DNA of 64,000 nucleotides from a virus (IMGVR_UViG_3300046542_000361), one strand, 5' to 3'; counted from the first letter of the stretch, positions 12,574-38,720 are shown. Notes: generated from the sequence alone by a model not told the origin. Made by a program: numbers and translations.

Positions 12574-13140
12574 TCAGAACCGCCCGAAATTGGGGTTGCC
12601 GGCGTAGGTTCGCGTTGCCTCGGCCTCTCTGCCGTCGGCGCAGACGCTACAAGTGCAGCGGTGCTGCGGCGGCCCGCCGACATGCGTCCATTCGATAGGC
12701 TCCGCACCGACCGTTGCTTTGAAGCCCGTCATCGTATGGTGAACCGTTGAATACTCGCCTTGATCGAGAACCTCCCAGCGGAAGCTATGCTGGGTAACTC
12801 GCATGCAGACTCCGAGCGGCCTTTTGGGGTTAGGCCCGCCTTTCCAGAGATAGTAGTCGAAGCCATCGAGAAAGAGCGCGCTCGTCTGGGCCCATTCGCC
12901 AATCGGATAGGCTGCGTCAAATGAGTCGCGGCCGAGACCTTGCGGAAAGGTCTTGCCGGTGACGCGCATGAACTTCCTGCGCATCGCCTCGAGCGTGCCG
13001 GTATCGTTGTTCTCCCAGTCGCCATCGACGCAGCGGATGACACAGGCCTGGCCGGCGTCCTTGTTCATGGTCAGGAGCGCGTAGTCGCCGGTGTAGGAAT
13101 CCAGCGTCCAGATGCTCTTGTTGTAATTAACCTCGATCAA
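12574..13140 (-). CDS. hypothetical Cys-rich protein ending in the …TYAGNPNFGRF tail (start uncertain; the track's 354-aa Arg-rich N-terminus is spurious)
   Basis: The C-terminal half is protein-like. It shares the C-terminal NPxFGRF motif with three other genes. Confidence 0.5.
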   Translation of the reverse strand: MIEVNYNKSIWTLDSYTGDYALLTMNKDAGQACVIRCVDGDWENNDTGTLEAMRRKFMRVTGKTFPQGLGRDSFDAAYPIGEWAQTSALFLDGFDYYLWKGGPNPKRPLGVCMRVTQHSFRWEVLDQGEYSTVHHTMTGFKATVGAEPIEWTHVGGPPQHRCTCSVCADGREAEATRTYAGNPNFGRF

Positions 13141-13526
13141 AGCTTCATCTCCAGTTGACCGGTCACACGACGCCAGCAGTCGATCACCATGCCGAAGTCC
13201 GATTTGTAGGCGAGCTCGCGCCCGAGGTGGCCGGCGAGCCGGTAGTTCACCTGCTCGAGGTAGATCCAATCGATGCGCCGGCCGCCGAGTTCCGGGCGCT
13301 CGTCCAGGTGCCGCAGCAGCTCGGTGAAATAGCCTCGGCCGCGGTGCTTCGCAGCCAAGGTGATGTTGTGGATCGAGAAGACGTTGTCGCGCGCCTTGTC
13401 CTCGATGCGCCTGACGCCGAAGCGCCAGGTGACGGTCCATATGTCGTTGCGAACGTCGCCACGGGATTCGCCGAGCCCGACATCGCTGTGCAGGTGGTTG
13501 AGCATGTCGGCGACGATCTTGGTCAT
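13137..13526 (-). CDS. GNAT-like acetyltransferase (putative)
   Basis: Motif …LAAKHRGRGYFTELLRHL… resembles the GNAT acetyl-CoA-binding motif A. Assignment from short motifs only. Confidence 0.4.
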   Translation of the reverse strand: MTKIVADMLNHLHSDVGLGESRGDVRNDIWTVTWRFGVRRIEDKARDNVFSIHNITLAAKHRGRGYFTELLRHLDERPELGGRRIDWIYLEQVNYRLAGHLGRELAYKSDFGMVIDCWRRVTGQLEMKL

Positions 13527-13924
13527 TTGCGTTTCCCCGGAAAGCGATTGATGCAGCGCTGCGGCCGGCTCTTGCCGGCGAACTTGCTGGTGCCGTTCTT
13601 GTTGCGGATGAAGGTGCCTTCCCAGCGCCAGATGCCACCGTAATGATTGCAGCCGCGGTTGACCTCGCTACCCAGGTGATCGAAAAGATCGGTCGCGAAC
13701 CAGGGTGAGCCTGGCAGCTCGTCGCCGGCAGCGGTCTTGAAACCCCAGTCGATCGGCATAACGTCGCTGTAAATGGTGAACGTCCAAAGGATGAAGCCGG
13801 TGTAGGTCTCCTTCACCTTTGGCGCGAGGTGACCCCAGGTATTTTGATAGACCGCCTCGACCTGGCCGACGAGCGGTGTGCCGAGCTCTGCTGCGCGTAG
13901 GGCCGCTGCCTTCGAGACGTTCAT
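13523..13924 (-). CDS. hypothetical protein (about 133 aa from MNVSKAAALRA)
   Basis: ATG at 13924 overlaps the stop of the upstream gene (ATGA). Confidence 0.5.
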   Translation of the reverse strand: MNVSKAAALRAAELGTPLVGQVEAVYQNTWGHLAPKVKETYTGFILWTFTIYSDVMPIDWGFKTAAGDELPGSPWFATDLFDHLGSEVNRGCNHYGGIWRWEGTFIRNKNGTSKFAGKSRPQRCINRFPGKRK

Positions 13925-14181
13925 GCCGCCTCCTTGCGAGCGTCCATCATCTCCCGCGTCTCGAACATGGGGTGCTTGAGCCGAGGCTGATAGTTCCGCT
14001 GCCAGTCGCGCAGGTTGATGCTGTCGAACTCGATCTGGTTGCGGCAGCTGTCGCAATACCAGGAGTAGGAGCCGTGGTTATACCAGCGTGCCGGGGCGGC
14101 CTGGCAGCGGGTGCGGTTGCAGGAGCCGTTCTCATGGCCCTTGTCGGGCTTATTGGGGCCGTTGTAATCGCCATAGGCCAT
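13921..14181 (-). CDS. Cys-rich small protein (CNRTRC…CDSC)
   Basis: ORF track. Confidence 0.5.
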   Translation of the reverse strand: MAYGDYNGPNKPDKGHENGSCNRTRCQAAPARWYNHGSYSWYCDSCRNQIEFDSINLRDWQRNYQPRLKHPMFETREMMDARKEAA

Positions 14182-14405
14182 CAGAAGCTCTCCGGCGTCG
14201 TGTTCATCGTGGTCAGATCAGCCTTCCACCAGGCCTTGAGCCACTCGAAAGCTTCGGGGTGGCTGGACTCGCAGGCAATTTCCATCGCCTGGTAGAGGGT
14301 GTAGCCGGCGTAGGTCGTCTCACCCTTCTCGTTGGTGCCGTTCAGGTCTATGACGACCGGCTCGAACTTCTTTGCTGCGTTCCTGGACATGTGACTGCTC
14401 CTCAA
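14181..14405 (-). CDS. hypothetical small protein
   Basis: The conserved motif lies upstream at 14403-14428. Confidence 0.5.
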   Translation of the reverse strand: MRSSHMSRNAAKKFEPVVIDLNGTNEKGETTYAGYTLYQAMEIACESSHPEAFEWLKAWWKADLTTMNTTPESF

Positions 14406-14457
14406 TCAATGTTGACTTATCAAATGTCGCACATCGCGACAAGGATTCCGGTAGGTT

Positions 14458-14712
14458 TTATGTGGCTGACGTCAGGGATCGACGCGAGCTGGCTTCGCCT
14501 CGAGCGGCCCGTCGGATCTGCGATACGACATTGAGCTCGGCCCGGTGATCGTTGCCCTGGCCGTCGCCGCGCTGCTTCTTCGGGCAGCAGGCTGCCAGCG
14601 TGTCGTTGACGAATATCCGAATGTGTTTCTTCCCCTCCTCGAGACGCCAGTCGGCGCCGATCTCCTTGAGGGCGGCCTGTGTCTTCTTCGAAAGGCAATT
14701 GAAAAGCTTCAT
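14458..14712 (-). CDS. hypothetical small protein (Cys pair CCPKK)
   Basis: ORF track. Confidence 0.5.
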   Translation of the reverse strand: MKLFNCLSKKTQAALKEIGADWRLEEGKKHIRIFVNDTLAACCPKKQRGDGQGNDHRAELNVVSQIRRAARGEASSRRSLTSAT

Positions 14713-14786
14713 GTGTCCTCTAAGCTGTTGTTTACTCTCTGTTATCGCATGAGAGCGTCAGGGCTGCACTCGGGAGCGTTCGGTAG

Positions 14787-15125
14787 CTAGAACCGCCCGT
14801 AATTGGGATGGCTAGCATATGGGTCGACCGGAATGATCGGGACTTCCGGCACCGGTGGCCGGTAGGGGCTGTTTTCGAACCGCAGCCAGGTCTCATGGAA
14901 ATACTGGGTGATCTGCGCCTCGGTCCCGCCGCTCGGAATCGGACCTTCCGTGGTCGCGCCGGTCAGGCGATCAACGATGCGCCATTTGAAGGCGTGGTGA
15001 ACCTTGACCTCTTCCTCAATCAATTCATCGTTAAGGTCGCCGATTCCTAGCCACTCTTCCTCCTCGATGAGGAGGCCGATGTAGCGATCGCCTTCTCGTA
15101 TCTCGACAACCGTCTCCAGGAGCAT
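14787..15125 (-). CDS. hypothetical acidic protein (about 112 aa from MLLETVV) ending in …DPYASHPNYGRF
   Basis: Its start overlaps the stop of the 15125 gene. Carries the C-terminal GRF-tail motif. Confidence 0.55.
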   Translation of the reverse strand: MLLETVVEIREGDRYIGLLIEEEEWLGIGDLNDELIEEEVKVHHAFKWRIVDRLTGATTEGPIPSGGTEAQITQYFHETWLRFENSPYRPPVPEVPIIPVDPYASHPNYGRF

Positions 15126-15577
15126 CAATAATCCTCGGCGTAGAAGATGGTGAGCACGCGATGCGTCACCTTGGGATCGGCCGGATTCTCCGACAGGTTC
15201 TCCATCGCGAGGTCGTAATAGTCGATCTTCCACATGTAGCTCTGCCCATCGATCTCGAAAGAGCCGAAGTCGTGCTCGCCGTATGGATCGTCCTTCGCAT
15301 CGAACGCGGCGTAGTTCTTTACCTGCTCGACAGCCTTGACGATCTCGTCAGCTTCTGCGTTCGCCAGACCGCCTGCGATAAAGATCTCGCCGCTGGCCTC
15401 AAGCCGGCGCAACTTGTCGTTCAGAGCGCGGACGTCCGACGTCCATTCGTCGAGCTGGGCGACGACCCAGTCGTTGTAGGAGAGATAGCTCGGAAGCAGC
15501 AGCCCGTCGGTCTTGACGAGGGCGCGCCATTTCTCATAGGTGAAGCGGTCGTGCTGGTTAGATGCGGTCCAGGTCAT
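15125..15577 (-). CDS. hypothetical protein
   Basis: RBS GAGGGA. Confidence 0.55.
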   Translation of the reverse strand: MTWTASNQHDRFTYEKWRALVKTDGLLLPSYLSYNDWVVAQLDEWTSDVRALNDKLRRLEASGEIFIAGGLANAEADEIVKAVEQVKNYAAFDAKDDPYGEHDFGSFEIDGQSYMWKIDYYDLAMENLSENPADPKVTHRVLTIFYAEDY

Positions 15578-15578
15578 T

Positions 15579-15875
15579 TCATCCCTCGTCGGTTAGGCAG
15601 CCCTGCTGCCGGCTGTATTCCATGAACTTCTTGACCTTCTCGCGCTTGCGGATGACCATACTGACGTCGCGGTAAAGCTCGATCTCGGCCTCCTCTGCCA
15701 GCAACTCCTGGGTCGCCTGAAGGTCGTTCCATTCGTGGTTCAGCCGTTCGGTGTTGTTGAAGGTCTGACCCGGCTGCACCTCATCGGCGCCGAACGTCAA
15801 AATCTTGGTGGCGCGCTGAGCGACCTCGAGGCATTCCTCGATGAACTTGGTGAGCAGGTATTCGCGTTTGTTCAT
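15579..15875 (-). CDS. hypothetical protein (from MNKREYLL)
   Basis: ATGA overlap at 15872-15875. Confidence 0.5.
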   Translation of the reverse strand: MNKREYLLTKFIEECLEVAQRATKILTFGADEVQPGQTFNNTERLNHEWNDLQATQELLAEEAEIELYRDVSMVIRKREKVKKFMEYSRQQGCLTDEG

Positions 15876-16243
15876 CGGACTTTCCCCTCCTTGACTAGAC
15901 GGATGGCGATCGCCTGCGTGGCGCGCTGGAGCCACTCCTCGCGCTCGTCAGGACTGAAGCAGCCGTCGCCCTCCGGATAACCCTCGAAAATCGTGTCGCC
16001 ACCGCAGTCCGGATAATCGACGCGGAAGAAGCCATGTCGCAGGCGCAGATAGCCAACCGGCTCCTCGCCGAGGAAGGCGTCATACTGCTCGGGGCAGGCG
16101 CCACAGGTCTGCTCAAGGCGGATCTCGACCTCTTTGATCTCGACGCCGGTCGGCATGCCAGCGTCCGTGTGCGTCTCGCAGGCGTGAAACTCACGGCCGG
16201 CGAAGAAGCAGCCGCAGGCGACGCTGATGACCGAGACGCTCAT
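15872..16243 (-). CDS. Cys-rich protein (multiple CxxC-like pairs)
   Basis: RBS TAGGAGCG. Confidence 0.55.
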   Translation of the reverse strand: MSVSVISVACGCFFAGREFHACETHTDAGMPTGVEIKEVEIRLEQTCGACPEQYDAFLGEEPVGYLRLRHGFFRVDYPDCGGDTIFEGYPEGDGCFSPDEREEWLQRATQAIAIRLVKEGKVR

Positions 16244-16455
16244 GCTGCGCTCCTACCTTCGACATGCTGACGCGCCAGCGCGTCGAGACCTTCGCCTTCG
16301 GAGATCGAAACGACGCCGTAATCCTCGCAGCCGCAGGTCAGGCGCCGGTTCGGCTTCACGATGGAGAACGGCACGGTGTTAACCACGGTGACGTGGTTGC
16401 AGCCGGTGCATTTCAGGTAGCTGCGAAAGGTCGGTGCTTCACGCTTCTTGGACAT
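16240..16455 (-). CDS. zinc-ribbon small protein (CTGC…CGCEDYG)
   Basis: RBS AGGAGAT. Confidence 0.55.
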   Translation of the reverse strand: MSKKREAPTFRSYLKCTGCNHVTVVNTVPFSIVKPNRRLTCGCEDYGVVSISEGEGLDALARQHVEGRSAA

Positions 16456-16999
16456 TGGCGATCTCCTGCTTCTGTTGTTCGATCTGATCCATCGTCAGCG
16501 ACCAGAGCACCTTGTCGCCGCCGCGCAGCACGGCCATCGCGTCTTCCTTTTCCTTCAGGAAAAGCGGGGCGAAGCTCGGCGCCAGCACCGCGACGTTCTT
16601 GGTGTTGTCCTTGATATCGGCGATCTTGACCGTCTGAACGGCCCACGGGGCGAGCGCCAGGCGCTCAACGTTGATCTGGTGCCGGTGCTTACGATTGCCG
16701 GCCGCCTGGCCGATGTTGGTAAGGTAGTAGAGCCCCTCGGCGATATCTTCGTCGAACTGAGCACGGATCACCTCAAGCGTGACGCCGGTGTCTTCGACCG
16801 TGTCGTGCAGCCAGGCCATGCAGACCTGCTGCCAGCTGTGATCGGGCAAAGCCTGAACAATCTCAGCAACGGCACGCGGATGAACGATGTAGGGCTCGTT
16901 GGTGAACTTGCGACGCTGGTCTATGGCGTAATGCGCCGCAGTCGCGAAAGCCTCGGCGCGCGCTATCATTTGCTCGCCGTATGCAGAGTAGTAAGCCAT
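16439..16999 (-). CDS. HD-domain hydrolase of the RelA/SpoT hydrolase type (small alarmone hydrolase-like; start MAYYSAYGEQ at 16999)
   Basis: HPRAVAEIV…WLHDTVEDTGVTLEVIRAQF matches the SpoT / Mesh1 (p)ppGpp hydrolase HD signature (HPL.VA…LLHD.VEDT). RBS AGGAG. The motif lies upstream at 17013-17037. Confidence 0.65.
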   Translation of the reverse strand: MAYYSAYGEQMIARAEAFATAAHYAIDQRRKFTNEPYIVHPRAVAEIVQALPDHSWQQVCMAWLHDTVEDTGVTLEVIRAQFDEDIAEGLYYLTNIGQAAGNRKHRHQINVERLALAPWAVQTVKIADIKDNTKNVAVLAPSFAPLFLKEKEDAMAVLRGGDKVLWSLTMDQIEQQKQEIANVQEA

Positions 17000-17072
17000 G
17001 CTGATCTCCTGATAATCAATCAATGTTTATTTATCGCACAGCGCGAGCAGGATTGCGGTAGGATCGCTGCGG

Positions 17073-17321
17073 CTAGAAGCGGCCGAACAGCGGATGCGTC
17101 TCGTATTCGTTGATGGAGATCAACGTCAGCTCGTCCATGATGATTATCTTCGGATTGGTGCCGGCGAGGGTGTCCGCTACCATCTTTGCAGCCTGGGACT
17201 TGCCCCACCGCCTGGCCGACGAAACGATCATCGCGCCACGGCGATTGCCATACCGATCAATCATAGGCTCGATCTCGGCAAGCATCCGCTTTTGGTAGTC
17301 CTTGAGCTCGGGCTGGGCCAT
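17073..17321 (-). CDS. small P-loop-like protein (…SSARRWGKSQ…IIIMDE…) ending in …NEYETHPLFGRF
   Basis: Start at MAQPELKDY with RBS GGAGA. Carries the C-terminal GRF tail. The motif lies upstream at 17368-17394. Confidence 0.5.
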   Translation of the reverse strand: MAQPELKDYQKRMLAEIEPMIDRYGNRRGAMIVSSARRWGKSQAAKMVADTLAGTNPKIIIMDELTLISINEYETHPLFGRF

Positions 17322-17401
17322 GTGAATCTCCGTCGTTGATCTGCTGATAGCGCCTCGAGCGGTGACGGTCAATCAGTTTTTACTGACCGTCACCGCGAAA
17401 T

Positions 17402-17650
17402 CTATGCAGCCTTGGCAGCCTGTTGTTGGTCCATCCAGGCGAGAAAGGCTGCATCGCTTTTGGTATCGGTGCTCTTCAGCGCCTCGCCGACGGCGCGCAT
17501 CAGTGCACTGCGTTGATCCTCGGGATAATCGGTCAGCGGCTTCACCGGACACTCAGAGGCGTCAGGATTGAGCGCGAAGAACTGCCGCGTCATCGCGGTG
17601 AGGAATGCATTGCAGGCGAACTCGAGGCGCTTACGATTGATCTTTTGCAC
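17402..17650 (-). CDS. hypothetical protein (GTG start, no obvious SD)
   Basis: ORF track. The sequence is protein-like. Confidence 0.4.
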   Translation of the reverse strand: MQKINRKRLEFACNAFLTAMTRQFFALNPDASECPVKPLTDYPEDQRSALMRAVGEALKSTDTKSDAAFLAWMDQQQAAKAA

Positions 17651-18044
17651 GAAGGTTGGCTTTCGTCATGATGAAGTTGATCGTCGCCCGGCTCCATTTG
17701 ACCGACCGGACAGGCGTGATGTCACTATTGTCCAGCACCTTCTTGATATCCGCAAGCGAGGCGCCCGGATCATCCTTCAGGATCTCCTCGATGATCGGCA
17801 CGACCAGAGCGTAGCGCTTGCTGGCCTCGAGCTTGGATGCAACCGCGGCTGCCTTTGCGGCGACCTTGGTGCGCTCGGCCGGCGTCATGCGGACACGCAC
17901 CAGCCGTTTACCCGGCAGAATCTCCTCGATCAGGTCCGGAAACTTGGTGAGACAGTTCCGGATAGCGGCGATGATCGTCTCGCCTGTGCGCTGCTCAAGC
18001 GGTATCGTATCGAGGTGATCGCGCAATCTCTTCCTATGCGGCAT
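17631..18044 (-). CDS. hypothetical protein (from MPHRKRLRD)
   Basis: Internal ATG. The track N-terminus is Arg/Pro-rich. Confidence 0.45.
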   Translation of the reverse strand: MPHRKRLRDHLDTIPLEQRTGETIIAAIRNCLTKFPDLIEEILPGKRLVRVRMTPAERTKVAAKAAAVASKLEASKRYALVVPIIEEILKDDPGASLADIKKVLDNSDITPVRSVKWSRATINFIMTKANLRAKDQS

Positions 18045-18360
18045 TGGCGTTCGCGGCAGGGATATCGGCCGCCCCCTGGTTGATGGCAACGGCGAGAATC
18101 GAACTTTGCAATTCCGGCGTCGCGGCGACAATGCTAAGCACCATCAGCGTTTGTCCATTGAGCAAAGCCTGTTTGTCTTCTGTCGTCATCGAGGCATGCA
18201 TTTTCTGCACACCAGCTATGCAAATACCTTGCTGGAACAATTCGGTCTTCCCGTCCTTACGAATGACCAACCCACAGTCGCCGTCATTGAGGTGAAATGC
18301 CCGTGTAGCGGGCTCCTGCCCGATTGCGGCCGTAATGTTCTCAAGGGCGTTCGTGATCAT
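18034..18360 (-). CDS. hypothetical protein, first gene of a minus-strand operon
   Basis: ATG with RBS AAAGGAATA. Divergent from the plus-strand gene at 18626. Confidence 0.55.
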   Translation of the reverse strand: MITNALENITAAIGQEPATRAFHLNDGDCGLVIRKDGKTELFQQGICIAGVQKMHASMTTEDKQALLNGQTLMVLSIVAATPELQSSILAVAINQGAADIPAANANAA

Positions 18361-18380
18361 TTTATTCCTTTCATACTCAT

Positions 18381-18410
18381 AACTTTTAGGGATGCTGTTA
18401 CCTAAAAGTT
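18381..18410. promoter_or_regulatory. perfect 10-bp palindrome AACTTTTAGG-N10-CCTAAAAGTT (operator-like) in a divergent promoter region
   Basis: Read directly. Further partial dyads (TAGTGACTAA…TAGTCAGTTAGAC) follow at 18410-18450. Confidence 0.5.
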
Positions 18411-18625
18411 GTTTAGTGACTAAGTTAAAATAGTCAGTTAGACATCGGGATGCATGACTATTTTAGCGGTTTCTCTTGTGCGCCGATTCGCCGTGGGTTA
18501 TCTGACGGTTGCACAAAGTTCGTGCCTCTCTCCACACAAGAGAAAATGATGGGTTGCGTGATCACCCCACGGTAGCTTAGGAATGAAGTCCTAAGAGCAT
18601 AACATGTTGAAAAGGAAATACCTGA

Positions 18626-18856: not shown

Positions 18857-18868
18857 GTCCCTAAATGT

Positions 18869-19304: not shown

Positions 19305-19333
19305 GGTCTGTTGCTTAAACGTTATATCTCGCC

Positions 19334-21715: not shown

Positions 21716-21726
21716 TCGCTTTCTCC

Positions 21727-25039: not shown

Positions 25040-25293
25040 TTTTTCTGCCCCTTCAGCGTGGCGCGCAGTGCGCTGTGCAGGGTCTCGAGCACGCGGCTGT
25101 CGCTTTCGAAGACGAGGCCGGCCGTGATATCCCACATGAGGCTGATGAGGAGGTAGAGCTCCTTGTCGCTGATGACGCCTCGGGTGTGGGCGTCGACGCG
25201 GCGCTTGAGCTCGTGATTGAGCTTGCGGCTCAGCTCCTCGACGTGCGTCGGCCATTCAGCGGCGTCTGGATTGATCGTCGAGGAGACTGTCAT
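25036..25293 (-). CDS. hypothetical protein (from MTVSSTINPD)
   Basis: ATG with RBS GAAAGG. The motif lies upstream at 25306-25337. Confidence 0.5.
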   Translation of the reverse strand: MTVSSTINPDAAEWPTHVEELSRKLNHELKRRVDAHTRGVISDKELYLLISLMWDITAGLVFESDSRVLETLHSALRATLKGQKK

Positions 25294-25330
25294 TTTAGGC
25301 CTTTCATCAATCAATGTTGACTGACTATAA

Positions 25331-30091: not shown

Positions 30092-30124
30092 TTCTGTCTT
30101 CCTTTCGTGTCGACCGTTGTTCGA

Positions 30125-30146
30125 TCAATCAATATTTACTGAATAG
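30125..30146 (-). promoter_or_regulatory. conserved operon-upstream motif copy (CAATCAATATTTACTGAATAGC) about 35 nt upstream of the rIIA-like gene start
   Basis: One of about 20 related copies; see findings. Confidence 0.5.
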
Positions 30147-30185
30147 CACGCGCGCAGACGGGATGCGCGCGGCTTTATCAGGCAG

Positions 30186-31479: not shown

Positions 31480-31500
31480 GACAGGCTCCTTAAACGAAAA

Positions 31501-31530
31501 AGACTAGTCAATCAATGTTTATTGACTAGT
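31501..31530 (-). promoter_or_regulatory. motif copy with perfect 10-bp dyad GACTAGTCAA-tcaatgttta-TTGACTAGTC
   Basis: Between the SPFH gene end and the start of the 31479 gene. Confidence 0.5.
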
Positions 31531-31561
31531 CTTAGAGCAAAAATATGTGGGTTGCTAGCGC

Positions 31562-32535: not shown

Positions 32536-32546
32536 CAGTGCCTCCT

Positions 32547-32813: not shown

Positions 32814-32911
32814 GGAATGCTCCTGATTGTTAGAGGAAGAGGCAGATCACGCCGGCAATCGCCAGCGTGTATCCGAGAAGCTCGAGGCGGCGATGCAGCC
32901 TCAGATCACGT

Positions 32912-33901
32912 TCACGCTGCGTCACGGACGTATTCACCCGGCAGCGTCTTGCGATATTGGATCCAGCCAGGGCCGAGATTGCCGGCCAGGTGCGGGTTAT
33001 TCCACTGGTAGAACGACCGTCGCTGTGACGGGCCGCGACTTGCGTCCACACAGATCGCACCGGTGTCTGGCGTTGCCTGGTGCTCGGCCGGCGATGCGTG
33101 CAGCGGCGAGGAGCCTACGAGAAGCTCGTAGCGCTCCAGCTCTTTTTCGATCGAGGCATCGCCGTCGAAGGGCTTGTAGGAGATACGGGCACAGCGAGCG
33201 ACGGAGAGCTTCTTGAGGTAGTCAATCGTCGGGTGCGTCGTTTCCGGATAGGGCTCGAGATAATCCTCGACCATCGCGATATCATCCTGCGTGACATAAG
33301 GCAGGTGCCATTCACCGGGCCGCAGGCCGCGGATCGGCGTGTGCTCGATCGCCTCGCGGATCAGCTTGGCGAGATCCTGGAAGTGCGGCTCGGCAGCCTG
33401 GTGATCACGCAGATGCATGAAGTTTGCCCAGTCGGTCGAGGTGATCAGCGTGTCGATCCAGGAGAACGGCTCGATCAGACGATTGGCGATCTGCTTGTGA
33501 TAGCCGGCGTTGGAGAACGCTTCAGCGGCTTCAACCGCATGATCACGCTGGTCGAGCCATGCGCCTTCGCGCGAAAAGGTGAGGTCGGAATTGGGGCAAT
33601 CCTCATCCCCGCGAATAATCACCGGCTCGTCGCATTCCGCGCCGGCCTGCATGCCCTTCTGATTTGCACCCCAATGCCAGGGAACGAAGGGCGTCTCGCG
33701 GATTTCCTTCAGCATCGTCGCAACCGGCACGGCGCGCGAGGAGCGAGCATTCCGGCTGAAGACGCGATGCGTCATGATCTCGGCGTGGATGATGCGCGGG
33801 TAGCGCGCATGAATGGTGAAGATCGGCGGCACGTTATCGCCGGGACCAGGCATCGGCGCGGACGCTGCGATGACCTTCACGAACATTTGGTCTTTCGACA
33901 T
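32912..33901 (-). CDS. thyX: flavin-dependent thymidylate synthase
   Basis: ThyX signature RHR…S.R (IMTHRVFSRNARSSRA). 329 aa. RBS AAGGAAT. Confidence 0.85.
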   Translation of the reverse strand: MSKDQMFVKVIAASAPMPGPGDNVPPIFTIHARYPRIIHAEIMTHRVFSRNARSSRAVPVATMLKEIRETPFVPWHWGANQKGMQAGAECDEPVIIRGDEDCPNSDLTFSREGAWLDQRDHAVEAAEAFSNAGYHKQIANRLIEPFSWIDTLITSTDWANFMHLRDHQAAEPHFQDLAKLIREAIEHTPIRGLRPGEWHLPYVTQDDIAMVEDYLEPYPETTHPTIDYLKKLSVARCARISYKPFDGDASIEKELERYELLVGSSPLHASPAEHQATPDTGAICVDASRGPSQRRSFYQWNNPHLAGNLGPGWIQYRKTLPGEYVRDAA

Positions 33902-33909
33902 GGGATTCC

Positions 33910-34110
33910 TTACTGGCTGAGAAGGCGACGGGAGATTTCGAGAAGCTCATCCTCGGTGCCGCCGCGCTCGATATCGAAGACCTGATGGCACTGGTCTGCC
34001 AGGTTGCGCATTTCGGCGTAGGTGAGCTTCTGGATGAGGCCGGCGATATGCTTCAGCCGGTCGCCGGGGCGGTCGTCCTCAGTCTTCGGCGTTATTCTGC
34101 GTTCGTTCAC
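33910..34110 (-). CDS. hypothetical small protein (GTG start)
   Basis: The track ORF is trimmed to a GTG with RBS GGAG to limit overlap with the 34079 gene. Confidence 0.4.
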   Translation of the reverse strand: MNERRITPKTEDDRPGDRLKHIAGLIQKLTYAEMRNLADQCHQVFDIERGGTEDELLEISRRLLSQ

Positions 34111-34273
34111 GGATGCTCCTTTCAAGTTCGCCCGCGAGCGCGTGCCGATAGCTCGAGCCGCGGACATTACCGTTGATGAATTGTCTGGTTGCGTCCTCGC
34201 GCAGCCAGGTGATCGTTTCCTTCAAGTCGACCGGGAGGAGGGGCCTTAGATTAGGAACGATCACCTGGCTCAT
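34079..34273 (-). CDS. hypothetical small protein
   Basis: ATGA coupling with the 34270 gene. Confidence 0.45.
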   Translation of the reverse strand: MSQVIVPNLRPLLPVDLKETITWLREDATRQFINGNVRGSSYRHALAGELERSIRERTQNNAED

Positions 34274-34548
34274 GCGACCCTCGGGCCAGGGGCGTCGGAG
34301 AGCTCGAGGGAAACGCGGACGTTGTATTCGACGCCGTTGTGCTTGAACGTCGCCTGGATCATCTTCTCGGTGGCGAGAAAGCCACGAATAAGCTTCTGAT
34401 CGGTGTTCACCACGTCGAGGACGCGATCGACGATAGCCTTGGTGCTATCGAGCAGACGACACTCGGCCTCGGTGATGTCGATCTTGGTCGGTGTCGGCGC
34501 CAGTGCGGCCTTGCGGCGCTCCGGGAACTGAAGAATTGCGGCTGACAT
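34270..34548 (-). CDS. hypothetical protein
   Basis: RBS GAGGAGA. The motif overlaps the RBS at 34558-34586. Confidence 0.55.
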   Translation of the reverse strand: MSAAILQFPERRKAALAPTPTKIDITEAECRLLDSTKAIVDRVLDVVNTDQKLIRGFLATEKMIQATFKHNGVEYNVRVSLELSDAPGPRVA

Positions 34549-34641
34549 GCTGTCTCCTCAATCAATGTTGACTTATGGTTGAAAAGGGATGATCGGTGTG
34601 AGCCGACTTTCAGCAGCGATTACGCTCTAACTGTCATCCAT

Positions 34642-34742
34642 CCCTTATGTGAAGCGTCCGATCCAATGAGCTATTGGCTCACCCATCTTCGCCGTCGCCA
34701 ACTACAACCGACCTCTCGGCCGTCAGACGCTTCACATAAGGG
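34642..34742 (-). ncRNA. candidate structured small RNA: 17-bp perfect inverted repeat (CCCTTATGTGAAGCGTC … GACGCTTCACATAAGGG) around a ~66 nt loop
   Basis: Lies in a 370-nt ORF-free gap. A conserved motif copy sits on each side (34858-34897 and 34558-34586); the former is placed to read into the hairpin on the minus strand. Confidence 0.4.
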
Positions 34743-34924
34743 CCGGGCTTATTTTCTGACGATCCCGGCTCGTCTTGGTTAATCAATTTGGACTGTTTCC
34801 GACGATCACTTAGATGAGCTTCATTGGCACCTCGTCGTTCGTTTTGCTGCGCTTGCGTTCAATCAACATTTACTTACTAGCAAGCGCAGCGATGGGACTC
34901 AAGTGAGAAAATAGAGAATCTGCA

Positions 34925-35146
34925 TTACGCCAGATATTTTCTCAGCGCGTCGAAACCACCGACATGCGTGTCGCCATCCCAAACCTGCGGGAAGGTGTCG
35001 GCGCCGGTGCGGTCTTTGAAGGCGAGCTGCTCCTCACGGGTGGCAAGGTGCTCTTCTTCGAACTCGACGCCACGGACGGCCAGGTGCGCTTTCGCACGCC
35101 TGCACCACTTGCAATCGGGGCGGCTGACGATTTTCCAGCCCATCAT
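34925..35146 (-). CDS. nrdH: glutaredoxin-like NrdH
   Basis: CKWC redox motif. 73 aa. ATGA-coupled to nrdJ. Confidence 0.8.
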   Translation of the reverse strand: MMGWKIVSRPDCKWCRRAKAHLAVRGVEFEEEHLATREEQLAFKDRTGADTFPQVWDGDTHVGGFDALRKYLA

Positions 35147-37563
35147 GCCGCCTCCTTCTCGTCTTCGGCGAAGTCGATCGGGCAGGCGCCGGCGCCGCAG
35201 TCCACATGCTCGAAGCCGATGTCTTCCTTGACGCTGTCGTTCTCGATCGCCGAGGCAATCATTTCGAATTGCGCCTTCGTCACCGGCTGCTCCGGCTGAT
35301 ACTCATAGGCCGACGTGTCGGTCTGCGGCATCACAGAGCAGCAGCGGATCGAAAACTGGCCGTCGATCAGCGTATGCAGGAAGTGTTCGAAATCGACCAC
35401 CTTCGGATCATACTTGAGGGTGTAGCTGACCTGGTTGCCGGTTTCATTGAGGAGGGACTGACCGGCCTCGTCGACGCCGTGGATCCAATACTTCTCCAGC
35501 AGGCGCAGGAATTCGTATTGATCTTCAGGCGTGGCTTCAGCAGCCGTGACCACCCAGGCGCCACCGTCCAGCTCGCAGATCCGCGGCTTGGTCGGGAAAC
35601 CAACGACGGTCGTGCCTTCGTAGGTCTTCAGCCGCTTCACCGGATAGCCCATTTCCTCATACTGCGCGACCAGCGGGTCGTCGTTGCGGAACTGCACCCA
35701 ACGGATGAACTCGCGCATCGAGGGCAGGTGAGCGCCTTCGGTGAGGCCGAACAGCTTCGAGGTCGTCCCGGCCGGCTTGAACGTCGTGTTGGTGTGCGGC
35801 ACGTTCACGCCGAGGATCGCAGCGAACTCGATCGCCTCCTCGTCGATGGCACGCTTGAAGCGCGACAGCGTCATCCACATCGCCTTCGACTTTTCCTCGT
35901 TGACGATATCGTGCCAGGTGAAGCCGAAGCGGGCATAGGCCCATTCATGGAAGCCGGTGATGCCGACGCCGATGCGGTTGGTGCGGTTGACCTCGCGCCG
36001 ATAAAGGCAGTCCATCGTGTTGACGCGCATCAGCGCACGCACAGCGGCACGGAAGGCGCTTTCAGCGTCGTCGTCGTTCTGGGCATGGAACGGCACCACG
36101 TCAGCGATGACGCAGTAAGCGCCAAGCATCAGCAGCGTGATCTCGCCGCAAGGGTTTGTGATCATGGTGTATTTGACACCCATAACCACGCGAGCGAGGG
36201 CTGCCATCAGCGGCACGGTTTCGGCGTCGACCTGGAAGCGCGAGGAGCCGGCATAGAGCCCGTCGACATAATCCTCGATGCCGTCGTTGTTCTGCGTCAG
36301 CTTGTCCTGATTAATGATGCCGGGCTCGCCGGTGCCATCGAAGTAGGAAGCCTTGGCGAGCTCGATCAGCACCTTCCAGGCGTGCGCCTCGATCTCGGTG
36401 ATGGCGTTGATGGCACGCAGGAACACCAGGCGCTGCACGGAGTTCGTCAGATCGCCGTCGCCGAGCTGGTTGCGAACCTTCTTACAGGCGGCGCGGAACT
36501 CGTCATCGATGGTGACGGAGTTGTTCGAAGACCAGAGGAAGCCACCGCGCTTCAGCTGGATGAAGCCGAAGATCGTCTTGTCCTTCCAGTGCTTCGTCGC
36601 CATACGGGCAGCGCGGCGCGCACCGCCGACGAGAACGCACTCGGCCGCGTAGTGGTCGGCATACATTGCGGCACGCCACGGCTCCATGCCGGCATCGCGC
36701 AGCAGTGCGATATTGGCGATCGCCGACATCAGCGGGCCGGGGCCAGACGCCGGGCGGTTCTGCATGCCCTTGATCGGAGAACCGTTCTCGCGCACGCCGG
36801 TAAAGTCGAGGATCAACACCTCGTCGCGGCGACCTTCGAAGGCCATGCGCTCGATGATTTCGACGGCTTTCGCCCAGCCCTCGCGGCTGTCGGGCACTTC
36901 GAAGATGGTGGTCTTGCGGCCGGCATAGAGGTGCTCGGCGTCGCGGCGCGTCTTGTAGCCCGAGATCAGTCCGCGCTGCACGTCCTTGTGCGACCAGTCG
37001 ATGACAGGCACGACGATCGGCATTTCGTTGTAGTCGGCGCGGATCATCAAGTCGTCATATGCGCGACCGACGCCGGAGCCGTTGAGCAGCAGATAGAAGA
37101 GCAGGAAGGTGGCAGCTGCCGTCGAGCAGTTGGTGAAGACTTCCTGGTTGCGTTCCGGCTGCGTCTCGTCGCCGTGCTGCAGGTGCCGGCCGGACATCAG
37201 GAGCGAGGCCTGGCGCAGATGGTGATTGAGCGTCGAATATTCGAACTGCTGGGCGTTTGCGCCACGCGGATCGAGCAGCGAGTTACCAAGGGCGACACGA
37301 TGGGCAACGTCGGACCAGGTCTCAACGCGCGTTGGCGGCTTTGCCCAGTGAGTGAAGCTGTTGGCATGATCGATGCCGATCGCGATACCCTGCGCGGCGG
37401 CAGCTCCGACGTAGAACTCGCGGTTCGGGTCGTTCTCGCTGATGACCGGAAACGACGGGAATTGCACTGCGGAATAGTCGGGGATCTTACGGTTGATGGT
37501 GCGGTCAGCGACAGCCTGACCCATGCCAGGGAAGTAATCCCTGGCGGGCGTGAACATATTCAT
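35143..37563 (-). CDS. nrdJ: class II (adenosylcobalamin-dependent) ribonucleotide reductase
   Basis: 806 aa. Active-site MITNPCGEITL. RBS CAGGAGTAA. Confidence 0.8.
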   Translation of the reverse strand: MNMFTPARDYFPGMGQAVADRTINRKIPDYSAVQFPSFPVISENDPNREFYVGAAAAQGIAIGIDHANSFTHWAKPPTRVETWSDVAHRVALGNSLLDPRGANAQQFEYSTLNHHLRQASLLMSGRHLQHGDETQPERNQEVFTNCSTAAATFLLFYLLLNGSGVGRAYDDLMIRADYNEMPIVVPVIDWSHKDVQRGLISGYKTRRDAEHLYAGRKTTIFEVPDSREGWAKAVEIIERMAFEGRRDEVLILDFTGVRENGSPIKGMQNRPASGPGPLMSAIANIALLRDAGMEPWRAAMYADHYAAECVLVGGARRAARMATKHWKDKTIFGFIQLKRGGFLWSSNNSVTIDDEFRAACKKVRNQLGDGDLTNSVQRLVFLRAINAITEIEAHAWKVLIELAKASYFDGTGEPGIINQDKLTQNNDGIEDYVDGLYAGSSRFQVDAETVPLMAALARVVMGVKYTMITNPCGEITLLMLGAYCVIADVVPFHAQNDDDAESAFRAAVRALMRVNTMDCLYRREVNRTNRIGVGITGFHEWAYARFGFTWHDIVNEEKSKAMWMTLSRFKRAIDEEAIEFAAILGVNVPHTNTTFKPAGTTSKLFGLTEGAHLPSMREFIRWVQFRNDDPLVAQYEEMGYPVKRLKTYEGTTVVGFPTKPRICELDGGAWVVTAAEATPEDQYEFLRLLEKYWIHGVDEAGQSLLNETGNQVSYTLKYDPKVVDFEHFLHTLIDGQFSIRCCSVMPQTDTSAYEYQPEQPVTKAQFEMIASAIENDSVKEDIGFEHVDCGAGACPIDFAEDEKEAA

Positions 37564-37597
37564 AATTTACTCCTGATTTTCGAAAGGCACCTATGCT

Positions 37598-37623
37598 AAA
37601 TCAATATTGATTGACTGCATAGG
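37598..37623 (-). promoter_or_regulatory. conserved motif copy (AAATCAATATTGATTGACTGCATAGG) upstream of nrdJ
   Basis: Dyad ATCAAT-ATTG-ATTGA. Confidence 0.5.
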
Positions 37624-37640
37624 CTTGTATTTTACGCAGT

Positions 37641-38213
37641 TTATGCAGCTGCCTTTTGGCTCGCGGCGAGGATCTGCACAGCCTGCCGGAAGCTCGGCAG
37701 CTTGATACCGGCATGCACGACACCCACGCCGTCGGCCAGGTGTTCGTTCTTCTGGGTTGGCACCATGACGCCACCGCGCTTTGTCGTCAGCCACGGTGCA
37801 TCAGGGTAGAGGTTGAATGCCCAGTGGATCATTTCCTCTTTCGACGCGGTGCGGGTGCCGACCGCGGCAATCTTCGTCTGCGCCGGCGCCACTTCTTCCG
37901 GCACGACGTCGAGGCCAGCATAGAGGCCGATCACGATCCCGAAGCCGAGCACAGCGTCGTAGCTCTTTCCGCCAAACGGGACTTCAGCGAAGGTGATGAT
38001 GCAATCCTTGGTGAACTCATTGGCCTCGGCCGCAAGCTTCTTGGCGCGCTCGAAGGTGTCAGAAGATGCACGCATCTTCTTGGTCTGCTCCTTCTCCGTC
38101 TCGATCAGCTTCAGATCGAGAACCGACAGCGCGCCGCTGCCGATATCATATTCCATTTTCGCAATACCGAAATTGCGCAGCGAGCCGTCGAGGCCGGCGA
38201 TCTTGATCTTCAT
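37641..38213 (-). CDS. RuvC-like Holliday junction resolvase (putative)
   Basis: N-terminal MKIKIAGLDGS (compare RuvC GIDPGS) and EHLADGVGVVHAG (compare RuvC DAADALAIA). 190 aa. Confidence 0.55.
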   Translation of the reverse strand: MKIKIAGLDGSLRNFGIAKMEYDIGSGALSVLDLKLIETEKEQTKKMRASSDTFERAKKLAAEANEFTKDCIITFAEVPFGGKSYDAVLGFGIVIGLYAGLDVVPEEVAPAQTKIAAVGTRTASKEEMIHWAFNLYPDAPWLTTKRGGVMVPTQKNEHLADGVGVVHAGIKLPSFRQAVQILAASQKAAA

Positions 38214-38216
38214 GTG

Positions 38217-38720
38217 TCAGAACCTTCCGAAGTTGGGATTAGTCTCATAGGCTTTCGAAGCCTCCTTCTTTTCCGCGAGCGCGAGCAGGGCCACCTCGGC
38301 GTCTTCGTTGATCAGATTGATCTTCACGTTTGCGACGATCTCGCGGAAATCCTCGCATTCGGTGATATCGAGCGCCTCTGCCAGGGATGAGCCGACCAGG
38401 GGAAAGACGGCGTCCATCGAGGCTTCGTCGACGTCAGCCCAGTCGTATTCCTTGGTCTCGACCGGCACTGCCTTGAAGATCAGCTGACCCTTGGCGCCGA
38501 GGTAGAAATCGTTCAGAAAGTGCTCCGATGCCGGGAGCAGGGGCCTTTGACGATAGCCAGGGCGCGGGTCGCTCTGCTTCATCACCGGGCGTGTGTGCAT
38601 GCCTTCAACGGCGAAAGGCTCATCGATCGACTTCAGAACTTCCAGCAAACGCTTGCCGGCGCGCTCGGTCAGAGCCTTTTCCTCTTCGCCGATCGGCGTC
38701 TTGGTTGATTTGGGTGGCAT
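38217..38720 (-). CDS. hypothetical protein ending in …KAYETNPNFGRF
   Basis: RBS GAGGAA. The motif lies immediately upstream at 38733-38774. Carries the C-terminal GRF tail. Confidence 0.55.
   Translation of the reverse strand: MPPKSTKTPIGEEEKALTERAGKRLLEVLKSIDEPFAVEGMHTRPVMKQSDPRPGYRQRPLLPASEHFLNDFYLGAKGQLIFKAVPVETKEYDWADVDEASMDAVFPLVGSSLAEALDITECEDFREIVANVKINLINEDAEVALLALAEKKEASKAYETNPNFGRF

What the first reader, a model, noticed from the sequence alone, without database searches (positions are those of the whole stretch)
12574..38255. Four unrelated small proteins share a C-terminal Y-x-x-[NH]-P-x-[FY]-G-R-F-COOH tail, three of them with near-identical 3' DNA
The genes ending at 12574, 14787, 17073 and 38217 terminate in …TYAGNPNFGRF, …DPYASHPNYGRF, …NEYETHPLFGRF and …KAYETNPNFGRF. 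The rest of each protein is unrelated: Cys-rich, acidic, P-loop-like and a 167-aa hypothetical respectively.

Three of the four also share about 25 nt at the DNA level across the stop codon (plus strand AGAACCGCCCGAAATTGGG at 12577, AGAACCGCCCGTAATTGGG at 14789, AGAACCTTCCGAAGTTGGG at 38219). The fourth keeps the peptide with divergent DNA, which argues for selection at the protein level.

Each of these genes is the last gene of its block, immediately before a motif-bearing intergenic region. I recognise no known family. Candidate roles are a C-terminal targeting or packaging peptide, a degron or protease / AAA+ recognition tag, a shared partner-binding peptide, or a modular cassette spread by recombination at the conserved 3' sequence.
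Basis: seen in the sequence. Interest (0 to 1): 0.8.

Follow-up and report, generated by a model that had tools for sequence, protein, structure and literature searches.

The report
Shared C-terminal docking tail on phage proteins
Four unrelated proteins of this Rhizobium phage end in the same ten-residue peptide, which recurs on other DNA-handling proteins across a large group of related phages and most likely tethers them all to one still-unidentified partner protein.

Summary
The window is a relative of Rhizobium phage RHEph10, in the supergroup of the Salmonella phage-plasmid SSU5. Four minus-strand genes end in Y-x-x-[NH]-P-x-[FY]-G-R-F; about 0.04 are expected by chance.

- **Selection is on the peptide.** Orthologues differ only synonymously in the tail codons. 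The shared 3' DNA is just those codons.
- **The tail is strictly C-terminal.** It follows a helix or linker and is modelled as low-confidence coil.
- **It is widespread.** It sits on WGR-domain proteins, on the DNA ligase in one lineage, on 61 of 120 retrieved Rhizobiales serine recombinases, and on 111 of 115 representatives of the family of the 38217 gene.
- **General form:** aromatic-G-x-aromatic at the C-terminus.
- **Its flavour is uniform within a genome but drifts between lineages** (FGRF, YGAF, WGSW; WATW in SSU5).

Best reading: a short linear docking motif for one shared receptor. The receptor is unknown. It is probably not the canonical beta-clamp cleft. My candidates are the SbcCD (Mre11/Rad50-like) nuclease, the CobS/CobT pair, or RecA/SSB. 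A protease degron is the main rival. Gene swaps and a deletion have breakpoints in the tail codons, which I read as a side effect. No description was found in the searched literature or in Pfam, PHROGs or NCBIfam.

The parts
12574..13140 (-). Tail-bearing gene A. About 188 aa, Cys-rich near the C-terminus, orthologue of RHEph10 gp127. Ends ...TRTYAGNPNFGRF.
   Evidence: The start is set by homology to gp127. No family hit.
12574..12606 (-). Tail codons plus stop of gene A. Also the junction of the gp126 deletion relative to RHEph10.
   Evidence: The upstream 90 nt match gp127 (87%). The downstream 60 nt match the region after gp126 (83%). The 33-nt tail matches both (94% and 85%).
14787..15125 (-). 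Tail-bearing gene B. About 112 aa, acidic, with a Pro-rich linker before the tail. Orthologue of RHEph10 gp134. Ends ...VDPYASHPNYGRF.
   Evidence: 5 synonymous and 0 non-synonymous changes in the tail against gp134.
14787..14819 (-). Tail codons plus stop of gene B.
17073..17321 (-). Tail-bearing gene C. 82 aa, with Walker-A-like RRWGKS and Walker-B-like IIIMDE. It replaces the body of RHEph10 gp140 and keeps the tail. Ends ...INEYETHPLFGRF.
   Evidence: The body is unrelated to gp140 (32% identity). The last 18 nt are identical and both flanks are conserved.
17073..17105 (-). Tail codons plus stop of gene C.
38217..38720 (-). Tail-bearing gene D. 167 aa, orthologue of RHEph10 gp068. It belongs to a widespread phage family that almost always ends in aromatic-G-x-aromatic. 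Ends ...SKAYETNPNFGRF.
   Evidence: AF2 model: alpha/beta domain 12-120, helix 125-159, coil tail 160-167 at pLDDT about 52; 111 of 115 representatives carry the tail.
38217..38249 (-). Tail codons plus stop of gene D.
   Evidence: 4 synonymous and 0 non-synonymous changes against gp068.
39703..41649 (-). SbcC/Rad50-like exonuclease gene, orthologue of RHEph10 gp063. Candidate receptor (inferred only). The D-family gene lies just downstream of this gene in every context examined.
   Evidence: Synteny. SSU5_076 overlaps the end of SSU5_075.
43025..44152 (-). SbcD/Mre11-like metallophosphoesterase gene, orthologue of RHEph10 gp059. Candidate receptor (inferred only).
55545..59442 (-). CobS-like AAA+ gene (55545-56852) and CobT-like vWA gene (56920-59442). 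An alternative candidate receptor (inferred only), conserved in every lineage that has tails.
51335..51349 (-). Canonical internal beta-clamp-binding motif QLELL in the phage DnaE, at residue 935 of the gene 50738-54151. Used here as a negative control for the clamp hypothesis.

Best explanation
**What it is.** The tail is a short linear docking motif. Its general form is aromatic-x-x-[N/H/D]-P-x-[F/Y/W]-G-x-[F/W]-COOH. Here it is Y-x-x-[NH]-P-x-[FY]-G-R-F. It sits exposed at the extreme C-terminus behind a helix or flexible linker. It tethers a set of otherwise unrelated early, replication and recombination proteins to one common receptor.

**How I think it works.** The aromatic residues at -4 and -1 (and -10), with the Gly and Pro turn-formers, insert into a pocket on the receptor. 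Positions -2 and -5 point away and are free to vary.

**Clients.** They include a WGR-domain protein encoded next to primase and ligase, the ATP-dependent ligase itself in one lineage, the D family encoded next to SbcCD, several small proteins, and a subfamily of island-borne serine recombinases in Rhizobiales.

**Which receptor.**
- My most likely single candidate is the Mre11/Rad50-type SbcCD nuclease. That means the phage copy, and the host copy for the chromosomal recombinases. The tail would then be a functional analogue of the Nbs1 NFKxFxK peptide. I give this about 0.2.
- The CobS/CobT AAA+ and vWA pair gets about 0.15.
- RecA, SSB, DnaB or a host hub share the rest.

**Shown and inferred.**
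- Shown: peptide-level selection, strict C-terminal position, occurrence on unrelated proteins, deep conservation, and lineage-wise co-variation.
- Inferred: that a receptor exists, and which one it is.
For: 1. The motif is non-random and only C-terminal.
2. Only synonymous changes occur in the tail codons between orthologues. Downstream DNA is not shared.
3. In the D family the tail (A157, Y158, P162, G165, R166, F167 invariant) is more conserved than the preceding helix. It persists in 111 of 115 representatives down to E about 1e-3.
4. The AF2 model puts the tail as low-confidence coil after a long helix, as expected for an exposed linear motif.
5. The same tail is found on:
   - WGR proteins;
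   - the ATP-dependent ligase in L083-L085;
   - a 42% G+C distant relative;
   - 61 of 120 retrieved serine recombinases of Rhizobiales, whose tail-less relatives stop right after the HTH.
6. The flavour is uniform within a genome and differs between lineages, as expected when several ligands track one receptor:
   - FGRF in RHEph10-like phages;
   - YGAF and YGIF elsewhere;
   - WGGWA, WGEWS and FGEWA in L083-L085;
   - YSDNP.WGSW on two adjacent genes in L092;
   - WATW twice in SSU5.
7. Position -2 is free (R, M, A, S, L, K, Q, I, V, T, D) whereas G(-3) and the aromatics are fixed.
8. For SbcCD specifically:
   - The D-family gene lies 0.05-1.5 kb downstream of the SbcC-like gene in every context seen.
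   - In SSU5 the W-tailed SSU5_076 overlaps the end of the SbcC-like gene.
   - Nbs1 docks on the Mre11 dimer through an NFKxFxK peptide (PMC7260605).
Against: - No binding was or could be tested here, so the receptor is unidentified.
- The D/SbcCD adjacency is seen only within one syntenic supergroup. It may be inherited gene order rather than a functional link.
- The resemblance to NFKxFxK reduces to two aromatics two residues apart. The Asn at -5 is not conserved and the lysines are absent.
- Chromosomal recombinases carry the tail with no conserved neighbour. A purely phage-encoded receptor therefore needs either a host homologue or a helper-phage dependency.
- A degron would also be C-terminal, disordered and shared.
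Confidence: 0.55

Rival explanations
1. The tail is a C-terminal degron or protease-tethering tag. A host AAA+ protease recognises it and keeps these proteins short-lived. [quoted passage not shown] Another unfoldase or adaptor is also possible. Short lifetimes would suit early proteins, a resident phage-plasmid, and recombinases that must act transiently.
For: - The tail is strictly C-terminal, ends in an aromatic residue and is disordered.
- From my own knowledge, recombinases and phage early regulators are classic protease substrates.
- A second C-terminal class, -Ala-Ala, is hugely over-represented in the same genomes. It resembles the ClpX ssrA/CtrA-type signal, which hints that C-terminal tags matter in this phage.
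- RHEph10-like elements sit as 115-119 kb contigs in isolate assemblies.
Against: - A ten-residue motif with fixed Y(-10), [NHD]P(-7/-6), aromatic(-4) and G(-3) is much more than Lon's terminal-residue rule needs.
- Some tails carry one extra residue after the aromatic (FGRFS, YGRFG, WGGWA), so the carboxylate is not held in register.
- The flavour shifts F to W between lineages, although the paper reports the Lon pocket as conserved between alpha- and gamma-proteobacteria.
- Near-universal retention in a core family and on a ligase suggests a positive function rather than mere turnover.
Confidence: 0.2
2. The tail is a non-canonical sliding-clamp-binding motif. It would recruit nick and break enzymes (WGR sensor, ligase), recombinases and regulators to the host beta clamp. 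The analogy is with the C-terminal tails of T4 proteins binding gp45, or PIP boxes binding PCNA.
For: - Ligases, nick-handling proteins and mobile-element recombinases are typical clamp clients (my own knowledge).
- The layout hydrophobic(-4), small(-3), x(-2), Phe(-1) resembles C-terminal QLGLF-type motifs (my own knowledge).
- The phage DnaE carries a canonical internal clamp motif, so the phage replisome probably uses the host clamp.
Against: - There is no Gln.
- Position -2, a key hydrophobic anchor in QL[SD]LF, is free here and is usually Arg.
- The DnaE clamp motif stays canonical across lineages (QLELL, QIELL, QAELM) while the tail drifts from FGRF to WATW. The two motifs therefore do not track the same pocket.
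- No phage-encoded clamp was detected among ten hypothetical proteins.
Confidence: 0.07
3. The conserved 3' sequence is primarily a DNA-level recombination cassette boundary. It would shuffle gene bodies, with the peptide as a by-product.
For: The gp126 deletion junction and the gene C/gp140 body swap both break inside the tail codons.
Against: - Synonymous sites in the tail drift freely while the amino acids stay fixed.
- The same peptide is encoded at 42% G+C with different codons.
- The peptide is conserved over 100+ divergent clusters.
- The similarity stops at the stop codon.
Confidence: 0.03
4. The tail acts as a nascent peptide inside the ribosome. It would slow termination or arrest translation, and so control expression of the gene itself or of the next gene.
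For: The pattern resembles arrest peptides (my own knowledge). It has fixed residues next to the stop codon plus an aromatic about 10 residues upstream, and it is always immediately before a stop.
Against: - All three stop codons are used.
- Tails with one extra residue exist.
- Downstream contexts vary from an overlapping start to a 94-nt spacer.
- The tail occurs on 80- to 465-aa enzymes rather than on leader peptides.
Confidence: 0.05

Closest known systems
Clamp-binding 'tool-belt' motifs: bacterial beta-clamp QL[SD]LF, eukaryotic and archaeal PIP box, and the C-terminal gp45-binding tails of T4 gp43, gp33 and gp55
   Same: A short, often C-terminal, aromatic or hydrophobic peptide is shared by unrelated DNA-transaction proteins (polymerase, ligase, regulators). 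It docks them on one hub. The tail sits behind a flexible linker.
   Different: The sequence is different: no Gln, a fixed Gly at -3 and a free -2. The phage's own DnaE has a canonical clamp motif that does not co-vary with the tail. No phage clamp was found.
Nbs1/Xrs2 NFKxFxK Mre11-interaction motif
   Same: It is an aromatic peptide near the C-terminus of an accessory factor, with two Phe two residues apart. It docks on the Mre11 nuclease dimer (PMC7260605). Here the most conserved client family is always encoded just downstream of the SbcD/SbcC (Mre11/Rad50-like) genes.
   Different: The lysines are absent and Gly replaces Lys. The motif here is at the very end of the protein and is shared by many unrelated proteins. 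No bacterial or phage Nbs1 analogue is known to me. Binding is untested.
SSB C-terminal tail (DDDIPF) and the T7 gp2.5/gp4 acidic tails
   Same: A terminal Phe at a free C-terminus serves as a protein-protein docking element in replication and repair.
   Different: The polarity is reversed. There, one hub protein carries the tail and many partners carry the pocket. Those tails are acidic. The phage SSB here has its own conserved acidic tail, DD(V/L)LA(D/E)LD.
C-terminal degrons: ssrA/CtrA-type xAA for ClpX, and C-terminal aromatic or hydrophobic degrons bound by the Lon N-domain
   Same: They are terminal, disordered and transferable tags on unrelated proteins. A terminal aromatic fits the Lon N-domain pocket (PMC11882793).
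   Different: The motif here is much longer and more structured. It tolerates one extra terminal residue. It co-varies by phage lineage.
Ku-binding motifs of XLF, PAXX and APLF
   Same: Short, often extreme C-terminal peptides with a key aromatic or Leu-Phe recruit several break-repair factors to one hub. The docking site is a vWA domain (my own knowledge).
   Different: This is a eukaryotic system. Bacterial Ku lacks the vWA domain. The only vWA protein here is CobT. The comparison is purely an analogy.

Membership tests
Beta-clamp-binding motif (QL[SD]LF / QLxLxL) | Conserved Gln at position 1 | tested here: not met
   Position -5 is N, L, M, D, E, T, I, K or P.
Beta-clamp-binding motif (QL[SD]LF / QLxLxL) | Hydrophobic Leu or Met at position 4 (-2), anchoring in subsite I | tested here: not met
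   Position -2 is mostly Arg and otherwise free: A, S, K, Q, D, T, M, L, I, V.
Beta-clamp-binding motif (QL[SD]LF / QLxLxL) | Motif stays near consensus across hosts because the clamp cleft is conserved | tested here: not met
   The DnaE internal motif stays QLELL, QIELL or QAELM. The tail drifts from FGRF to WGSW to WATW.
Beta-clamp-binding motif (QL[SD]LF / QLxLxL) | Physical binding to DnaN | not testable with these tools
   No complex prediction or assay was available.
T4-type phage clamp system (gp45-binding tails) | Phage-encoded sliding clamp and clamp loader | tested here: inconclusive
   Ten hypothetical RHEph10 proteins gave no clamp domain in Pfam. gp031 and gp049 look helical by eye. 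Structure-level searches were not done for all proteins.
SSB-Ct-like acidic tail | Run of acidic residues followed by (I/L)PF-COOH | tested here: not met
   The tails are neutral or basic. The phage SSB carries a separate acidic tail.
ClpX C-motif-1 degron (ssrA-like xAA-COOH) | Terminal Ala-Ala with a free carboxylate | tested here: not met
   The tail ends in an aromatic residue. A different set of proteins in the window ends in -AA.
Lon C-terminal degron | Terminal aromatic or hydrophobic residue with a free carboxylate | tested here: met
   All four tails end in Phe. Several homologues have one extra residue.
Lon C-terminal degron | Lon-dependent degradation | not testable with these tools
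   This needs stability assays.
Nbs1-type Mre11-interaction motif (NFKxFxK) | N-F-K-x-F-x-K sequence | tested here: not met
   Only the F-x-x-F spacing is shared. The lysines are absent and Asn(-5) is not conserved.
Nbs1-type Mre11-interaction motif (NFKxFxK) | Client associated with an Mre11/Rad50 complex | tested here: inconclusive
   The D family is always encoded just downstream of the SbcD- and SbcC-like genes. All these contexts belong to one syntenic supergroup.
PDZ-recognised OMP-type C-terminus (Y-x-F-COOH) | Aromatic at -3 and Phe at -1 on exported proteins | tested here: not met
   Position -3 is an invariant Gly. The carriers are a ligase, recombinases and WGR proteins, which are cytoplasmic DNA enzymes.
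WGR-domain proteins (one client class) | Pfam WGR domain PF05406 | tested here: met
   RHEph10 gp034 scores E = 9e-16. It lies just outside the window. None of the four window proteins has this domain.

The most novel reading that the evidence does not exclude
The tail is the address label of an unrecognised hub system in the SSU5/RHEph10 phage-plasmid supergroup. DNA-break-handling proteins would be docked by one co-evolving C-terminal peptide onto a single machine. Those proteins are a WGR break sensor, an ATP-dependent ligase, the D family, small regulators and even island-borne serine recombinases of the host.

The machine would be one of two things:
- **The Mre11/Rad50-type SbcCD nuclease.** That would give bacteria and phages an Nbs1-like adaptor logic.
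- **The phage CobS/CobT AAA+ and vWA pair.** That would give the first function for these widespread phage 'cobalt chelatase' genes.

In either case the chromosomal recombinases could be wired to sense or exploit the same hub.
Probability: 0.25. Interest if true: 0.85.

Novelty: new variant of a known kind. Interest (0 to 1): 0.72.

Why it matters
- **Access to unknown proteins.** Shared C-terminal docking peptides define interaction hubs such as clamps and SSB. They are among the most useful handles for dissecting replication and repair machines. Here an undescribed motif marks at least eight protein families, most of them hypothetical proteins. They belong to a large, clinically and agriculturally relevant group of phage-plasmids (SSU5-like in Enterobacteria, RHEph10-like in rhizobia). 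The motif also marks a family of island recombinases. A single peptide pull-down could assign a partner to all of them at once.
- **Possible new biology.** Finding the receptor might reveal an Nbs1-like layer on bacterial SbcCD or a function for phage CobS/CobT.
- **Genome evolution.** The tail codons act as micro-homology for gene swapping, which helps explain mosaicism in this accessory region.
- **Practical use.** The motif is a simple, sensitive sequence tag for finding further clients.

Tried and rejected
- **Tail-only profile against the 5.8-billion protein set.** The word index returned 9 candidates, so the search was useless.
- **Tail profile against PDB sequences.** No hits.
- **Literature searches.** Searches for FGRF, NFGRF, LFGRF and similar strings and for SSU5 with CobS turned up no description of the motif.
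- **Tail-only HMM built from the four window tails.** It scores non-homologous tails at only 10-25 bits, too weak for a 1.8-billion search. I spent that job on the D family instead.
- **Pfam, PHROG and NCBIfam on the four window proteins.** No significant family.
- **Pfam on the longer D-family proteins that carry an N-terminal extension.** No informative extra domain.
- **Receptor candidates rejected on phyletic grounds.**
  - The sigma factor, gp046, gp036 and RepC are absent from the W-type and SSU5 lineages, which still have tails.
  - No HslV-like peptidase is annotated in SSU5.
- **The intergenic palindrome.** It is not specific to tail genes.
- **A phage-encoded clamp.** None was found.
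- **Chance hits in the DNA pattern scans.** Short ORFs in Bacteroidota and other genomes were discarded by ORF length.

Full report
**1. The observation**

The four minus-strand ORFs with stops at 12574, 14787, 17073 and 38217 end in TYAGNPNFGRF, PYASHPNYGRF, EYETHPLFGRF and AYETNPNFGRF.

- Among all 3323 stop-to-stop segments of the window, only these four end in GRF, and all four carry the extended motif.
- The core pattern P.[FY]G.F occurs nowhere internally in any six-frame ORF of at least 60 aa. It is at the extreme C-terminus in 4 of 4 cases here and 6 of 6 in the related phage RHEph10.
- Composition predicts about 0.04 aromatic-G-x-aromatic ends per window.
- No Pfam, PHROG or NCBIfam family joins the four proteins. 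I did not compare their bodies pairwise.

**2. What the window is**

The window is about 84% identical to Rhizobium phage RHEph10 (115 kb). It runs antiparallel to RHEph10 coordinates from about 96.7 kb to 31.4 kb.

RHEph10 has seven tail-bearing genes (domain):
- gp034, a WGR-domain protein next to the primase, ending ...NPRFGMF;
- gp035, ending ...ENFGRF;
- gp068, gp126, gp127, gp134 and gp140.

Through its CobS gene the group is related to the phage-plasmid SSU5 of Salmonella. It is also related to Klebsiella and E. coli phage-plasmids and to Pseudomonas and Stenotrophomonas phages. Close homologues of gene D lie on 115-119 kb contigs in Rhizobium, Ensifer and Pararhizobium isolate assemblies. 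This points to resident phage-plasmids.

**3. Peptide, not DNA**

- The '25 nt of shared DNA' is only the codons. Sequences after the stop differ between paralogous tails.
- Orthologue pairs show 4 and 5 synonymous changes and no non-synonymous change within the ten tail codons.
- The same peptide is written in different codons in a 42% G+C relative.
- The claim that each gene closes a block before a motif-bearing spacer does not hold. The gene after 38217 starts 3 nt later. Three RHEph10 tail genes overlap the next start. The palindromic spacer motif (TCAAT..ATTGA) is found in many intergenic regions.

**4. Recombination at the tail codons**

- Relative to RHEph10 the window lacks gp126. The sequence upstream of the junction matches gp127 (87%). 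The sequence downstream matches the spacer after gp126 (83%). The 33-nt tail matches both.
- Gene C (17073-17321) replaces the body of gp140, with both flanks and the last 18 nt of the tail conserved.
- The tail codons therefore serve as micro-homology for deletion and cassette exchange. Given the free synonymous drift, I regard this as a consequence and not the selected function.

**5. Distribution**

DNA pattern scans and protein searches found the tail in these places:
- on RHEph10-like contigs;
- on three tandem paralogues in a 42% G+C distant relative that shares DnaE, CobS, CobT, sigma and RepC;
- on WGR proteins in nearly every lineage;
- on the ATP-dependent DNA ligase in one lineage (L083 ...VGEWG, L084 ...TGEWG, L085 ...GFGEWA);
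- on a subfamily of small serine recombinases (Resolvase plus HTH) in chromosomes of Sinorhizobium, Rhizobium, Mesorhizobium and Cereibacter.

For the recombinases, 61 of the 120 best homologues carry the tail. More distant relatives of about 223 aa stop right after the HTH. These recombinases sit at the edges of defence islands (BREX, type I R-M, IS66) with no conserved neighbour.

An exhaustive profile search with the gene D family returned 117 representative clusters. Of the 115 beyond the first two rows, 111 end in aromatic-G-x-aromatic, with at most one extra residue. The consensus is Y-x-x-[N/D/H]-P-x-[F/W/Y]-G-x-[F/W]. Position -2 is free.

**6. Anatomy**

- In the D-family alignment the tail residues are invariant while the preceding helix is highly variable.
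- AlphaFold2 models gene D as an alpha/beta domain (12-120), a long helix (125-159) and a coil tail (160-167) with pLDDT about 52.
- No solved structure resembles the body convincingly.
- Other clients place the tail after Pro-rich or charged linkers.

**7. Co-variation**

Within a genome all tails share one flavour. Between lineages the flavour changes:
- FGRF in RHEph10-like phages;
- FGAF, YGAF, FGIF and YGIF in others;
- WGGWA, WGEWS and FGEWA in L083-L085;
- FGSW and WGSW in L087;
- YSDNP.WGSW on two adjacent genes in L092;
- GWATW, TWATW and AWDW in SSU5.

This is what several ligands tracking one receptor should look like.

**8. Which receptor?**

*Beta clamp.* The phage DnaE carries a canonical internal clamp-binding motif (QLELL at residue 935). 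It stays canonical across lineages (QIELL in L004, QAELM in SSU5) while the tail drifts. The tail also lacks Gln and has a free -2. The canonical beta-clamp cleft is therefore unlikely.

*Excluded by absence.* The sigma factor, gp046, gp036 and RepC are absent from the W-type and SSU5 lineages. No HslV-like peptidase is annotated in SSU5.

*Still possible.* The core proteins present everywhere are DnaB, primase, ligase, DnaE, gp049, SSB, the 5'-3' exonuclease, RecA, SbcCD and CobS/CobT.

*Leads.*
- The D family is always encoded 0.05-1.5 kb downstream of the SbcC-like gene, after the SbcD-like gene.
- In SSU5 the W-tailed SSU5_076 overlaps the end of the SbcC-like gene.
- The other clients are break or nick proteins: the WGR protein, the ligase and the recombinases.
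- In eukaryotes Nbs1 docks on the Mre11 dimer through an NFKxFxK peptide.

On this basis I rank SbcCD first among specific receptors, at about 0.2. CobS/CobT comes next, at about 0.15. It is a conserved AAA+ and vWA pair with no known phage substrate. From general knowledge, vWA MIDAS sites bind carboxylates. All of this is inference. No binding could be computed.

**9. Rivals**

- **Degron.** This is the main alternative. [quoted passage not shown] The same genomes show a second, very strong C-terminal bias, -Ala-Ala. It marks 17 of 96 gene calls in the window against 1.1 expected, and 22 of 155 in RHEph10 against 1.7. It is conserved on ligase, exonuclease and RecA orthologues across lineages. 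That bias resembles ClpX signals. Against a degron for the aromatic tail: the length and structure of the motif, the tolerated extra residue, and the lineage drift.
- **Others.** A clamp motif, a DNA-level cassette signal and a nascent-chain effect are less likely. The reasons are given under each rival.

**10. Verdict**

The tail is a conserved, exposed C-terminal linear motif shared by unrelated phage and island proteins. It most likely docks them on one receptor. It works like clamp-binding or Nbs1-type peptides, but it fails the sequence tests for both families. I found no prior description in the searched literature or in the family databases used. I rate it a new variant of a known kind, with a real chance of uncovering a new hub.

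Noticed in passing
Window, minus-strand stops at 16240, 17402, 23293, 25331, 27713, 30806, 32912, 35143, 37641, 38952, 39703, 45778, 47626, 50136, 54916 and 62366: A second C-terminal class. 17 of 96 crude gene calls end in -Ala-Ala against 1.1 expected, and 22 of 155 in RHEph10 against 1.7. They include NrdA, NrdB, RecA, ligase, the 5'-3' exonuclease, dUTPase, sigma and the RIIA-like protein. About half are GCN-GCA-TGA with the next ATG overlapping. Seven are followed by intergenic DNA. The -AA end is kept on ligase, exonuclease and RecA orthologues in divergent lineages. It may be a ClpX-type signal or a translational-coupling constraint.
   Followed up: partly
Window intergenic regions, for example 25256-25330, 30092-30185, 31480-31561, 34549-34924 (more than one copy), 37564-37640, 50079-50135, 56853-56919, 59443-59484 and 59716-59833: A recurrent palindromic motif of the form (A/C)AGTCAAT-N3-5-ATTGA(T/C)T, for example AGTCAATCAATATTGATTTA. 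It lies upstream of many minus-strand genes and is probably an operator or promoter element. It is not specific to the tail genes.
   Followed up: partly
Window 51335-51349 (minus strand), within DnaE 50738-54151: The phage Pol III alpha homologue keeps a canonical internal beta-clamp-binding motif (SRIKDQLELLPGLV). It is conserved as QIELL in a 42% G+C relative and as QAELM in SSU5. The phage replisome therefore probably uses the host clamp.
   Followed up: yes
Window 17073-17321 (minus strand): Gene C is an 82-aa protein with Walker-A-like (ARRWGKS) and Walker-B-like (IIIMDE) elements followed directly by the tail. It looks like a minimal or truncated P-loop module. It occupies the slot where RHEph10 has the unrelated 183-aa gp140.
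   Followed up: partly
Window 48730-49671 (minus strand), and orthologues in L068-L089 and SSU5: The large phage SSB (313 aa) has its own conserved acidic amphipathic C-terminus, DD(V/L)LA(D/E)LD(S/T/A)(I/L). It stays constant across lineages, unlike the aromatic tail.
   Followed up: partly
L018, L022, L028, L029 and L065-L067 (bacterial chromosomes): Tail-bearing small serine recombinases sit at the borders of variable defence cargo (BREX, type I R-M, a RecQ-like helicase, IS66). In L029 two such recombinases lie 3 kb apart, one ending NPNFGRF and the other NDPLYGAF.
   Followed up: partly
P0123, P0125, P0130 and P0132: RHEph10-like genomes appear as 115-119 kb contigs in assemblies of Rhizobium bangladeshense, R. 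azibense, Pararhizobium qamdonense and Ensifer isolates. With RepC and ParA/ParB genes and the CobS link to SSU5, this suggests a phage-plasmid lifestyle.
   Followed up: partly
L034 6172-6642 (metagenome contig Ga0209172_10012411): Four overlapping short ORFs each end in RYLT[NS]PKFGRF or ...IRTNPKFGRF. This looks like a tandem DNA repeat that happens to encode the motif. Its origin is unexplained.
   Followed up: no
Window 59485-59715 (minus strand): A 76-aa protein (orthologue of RHEph10 gp042) ends in a very hydrophobic, aromatic C-terminus, ...GLLLFPFVIQDF. It does not match the tail motif.
   Followed up: no
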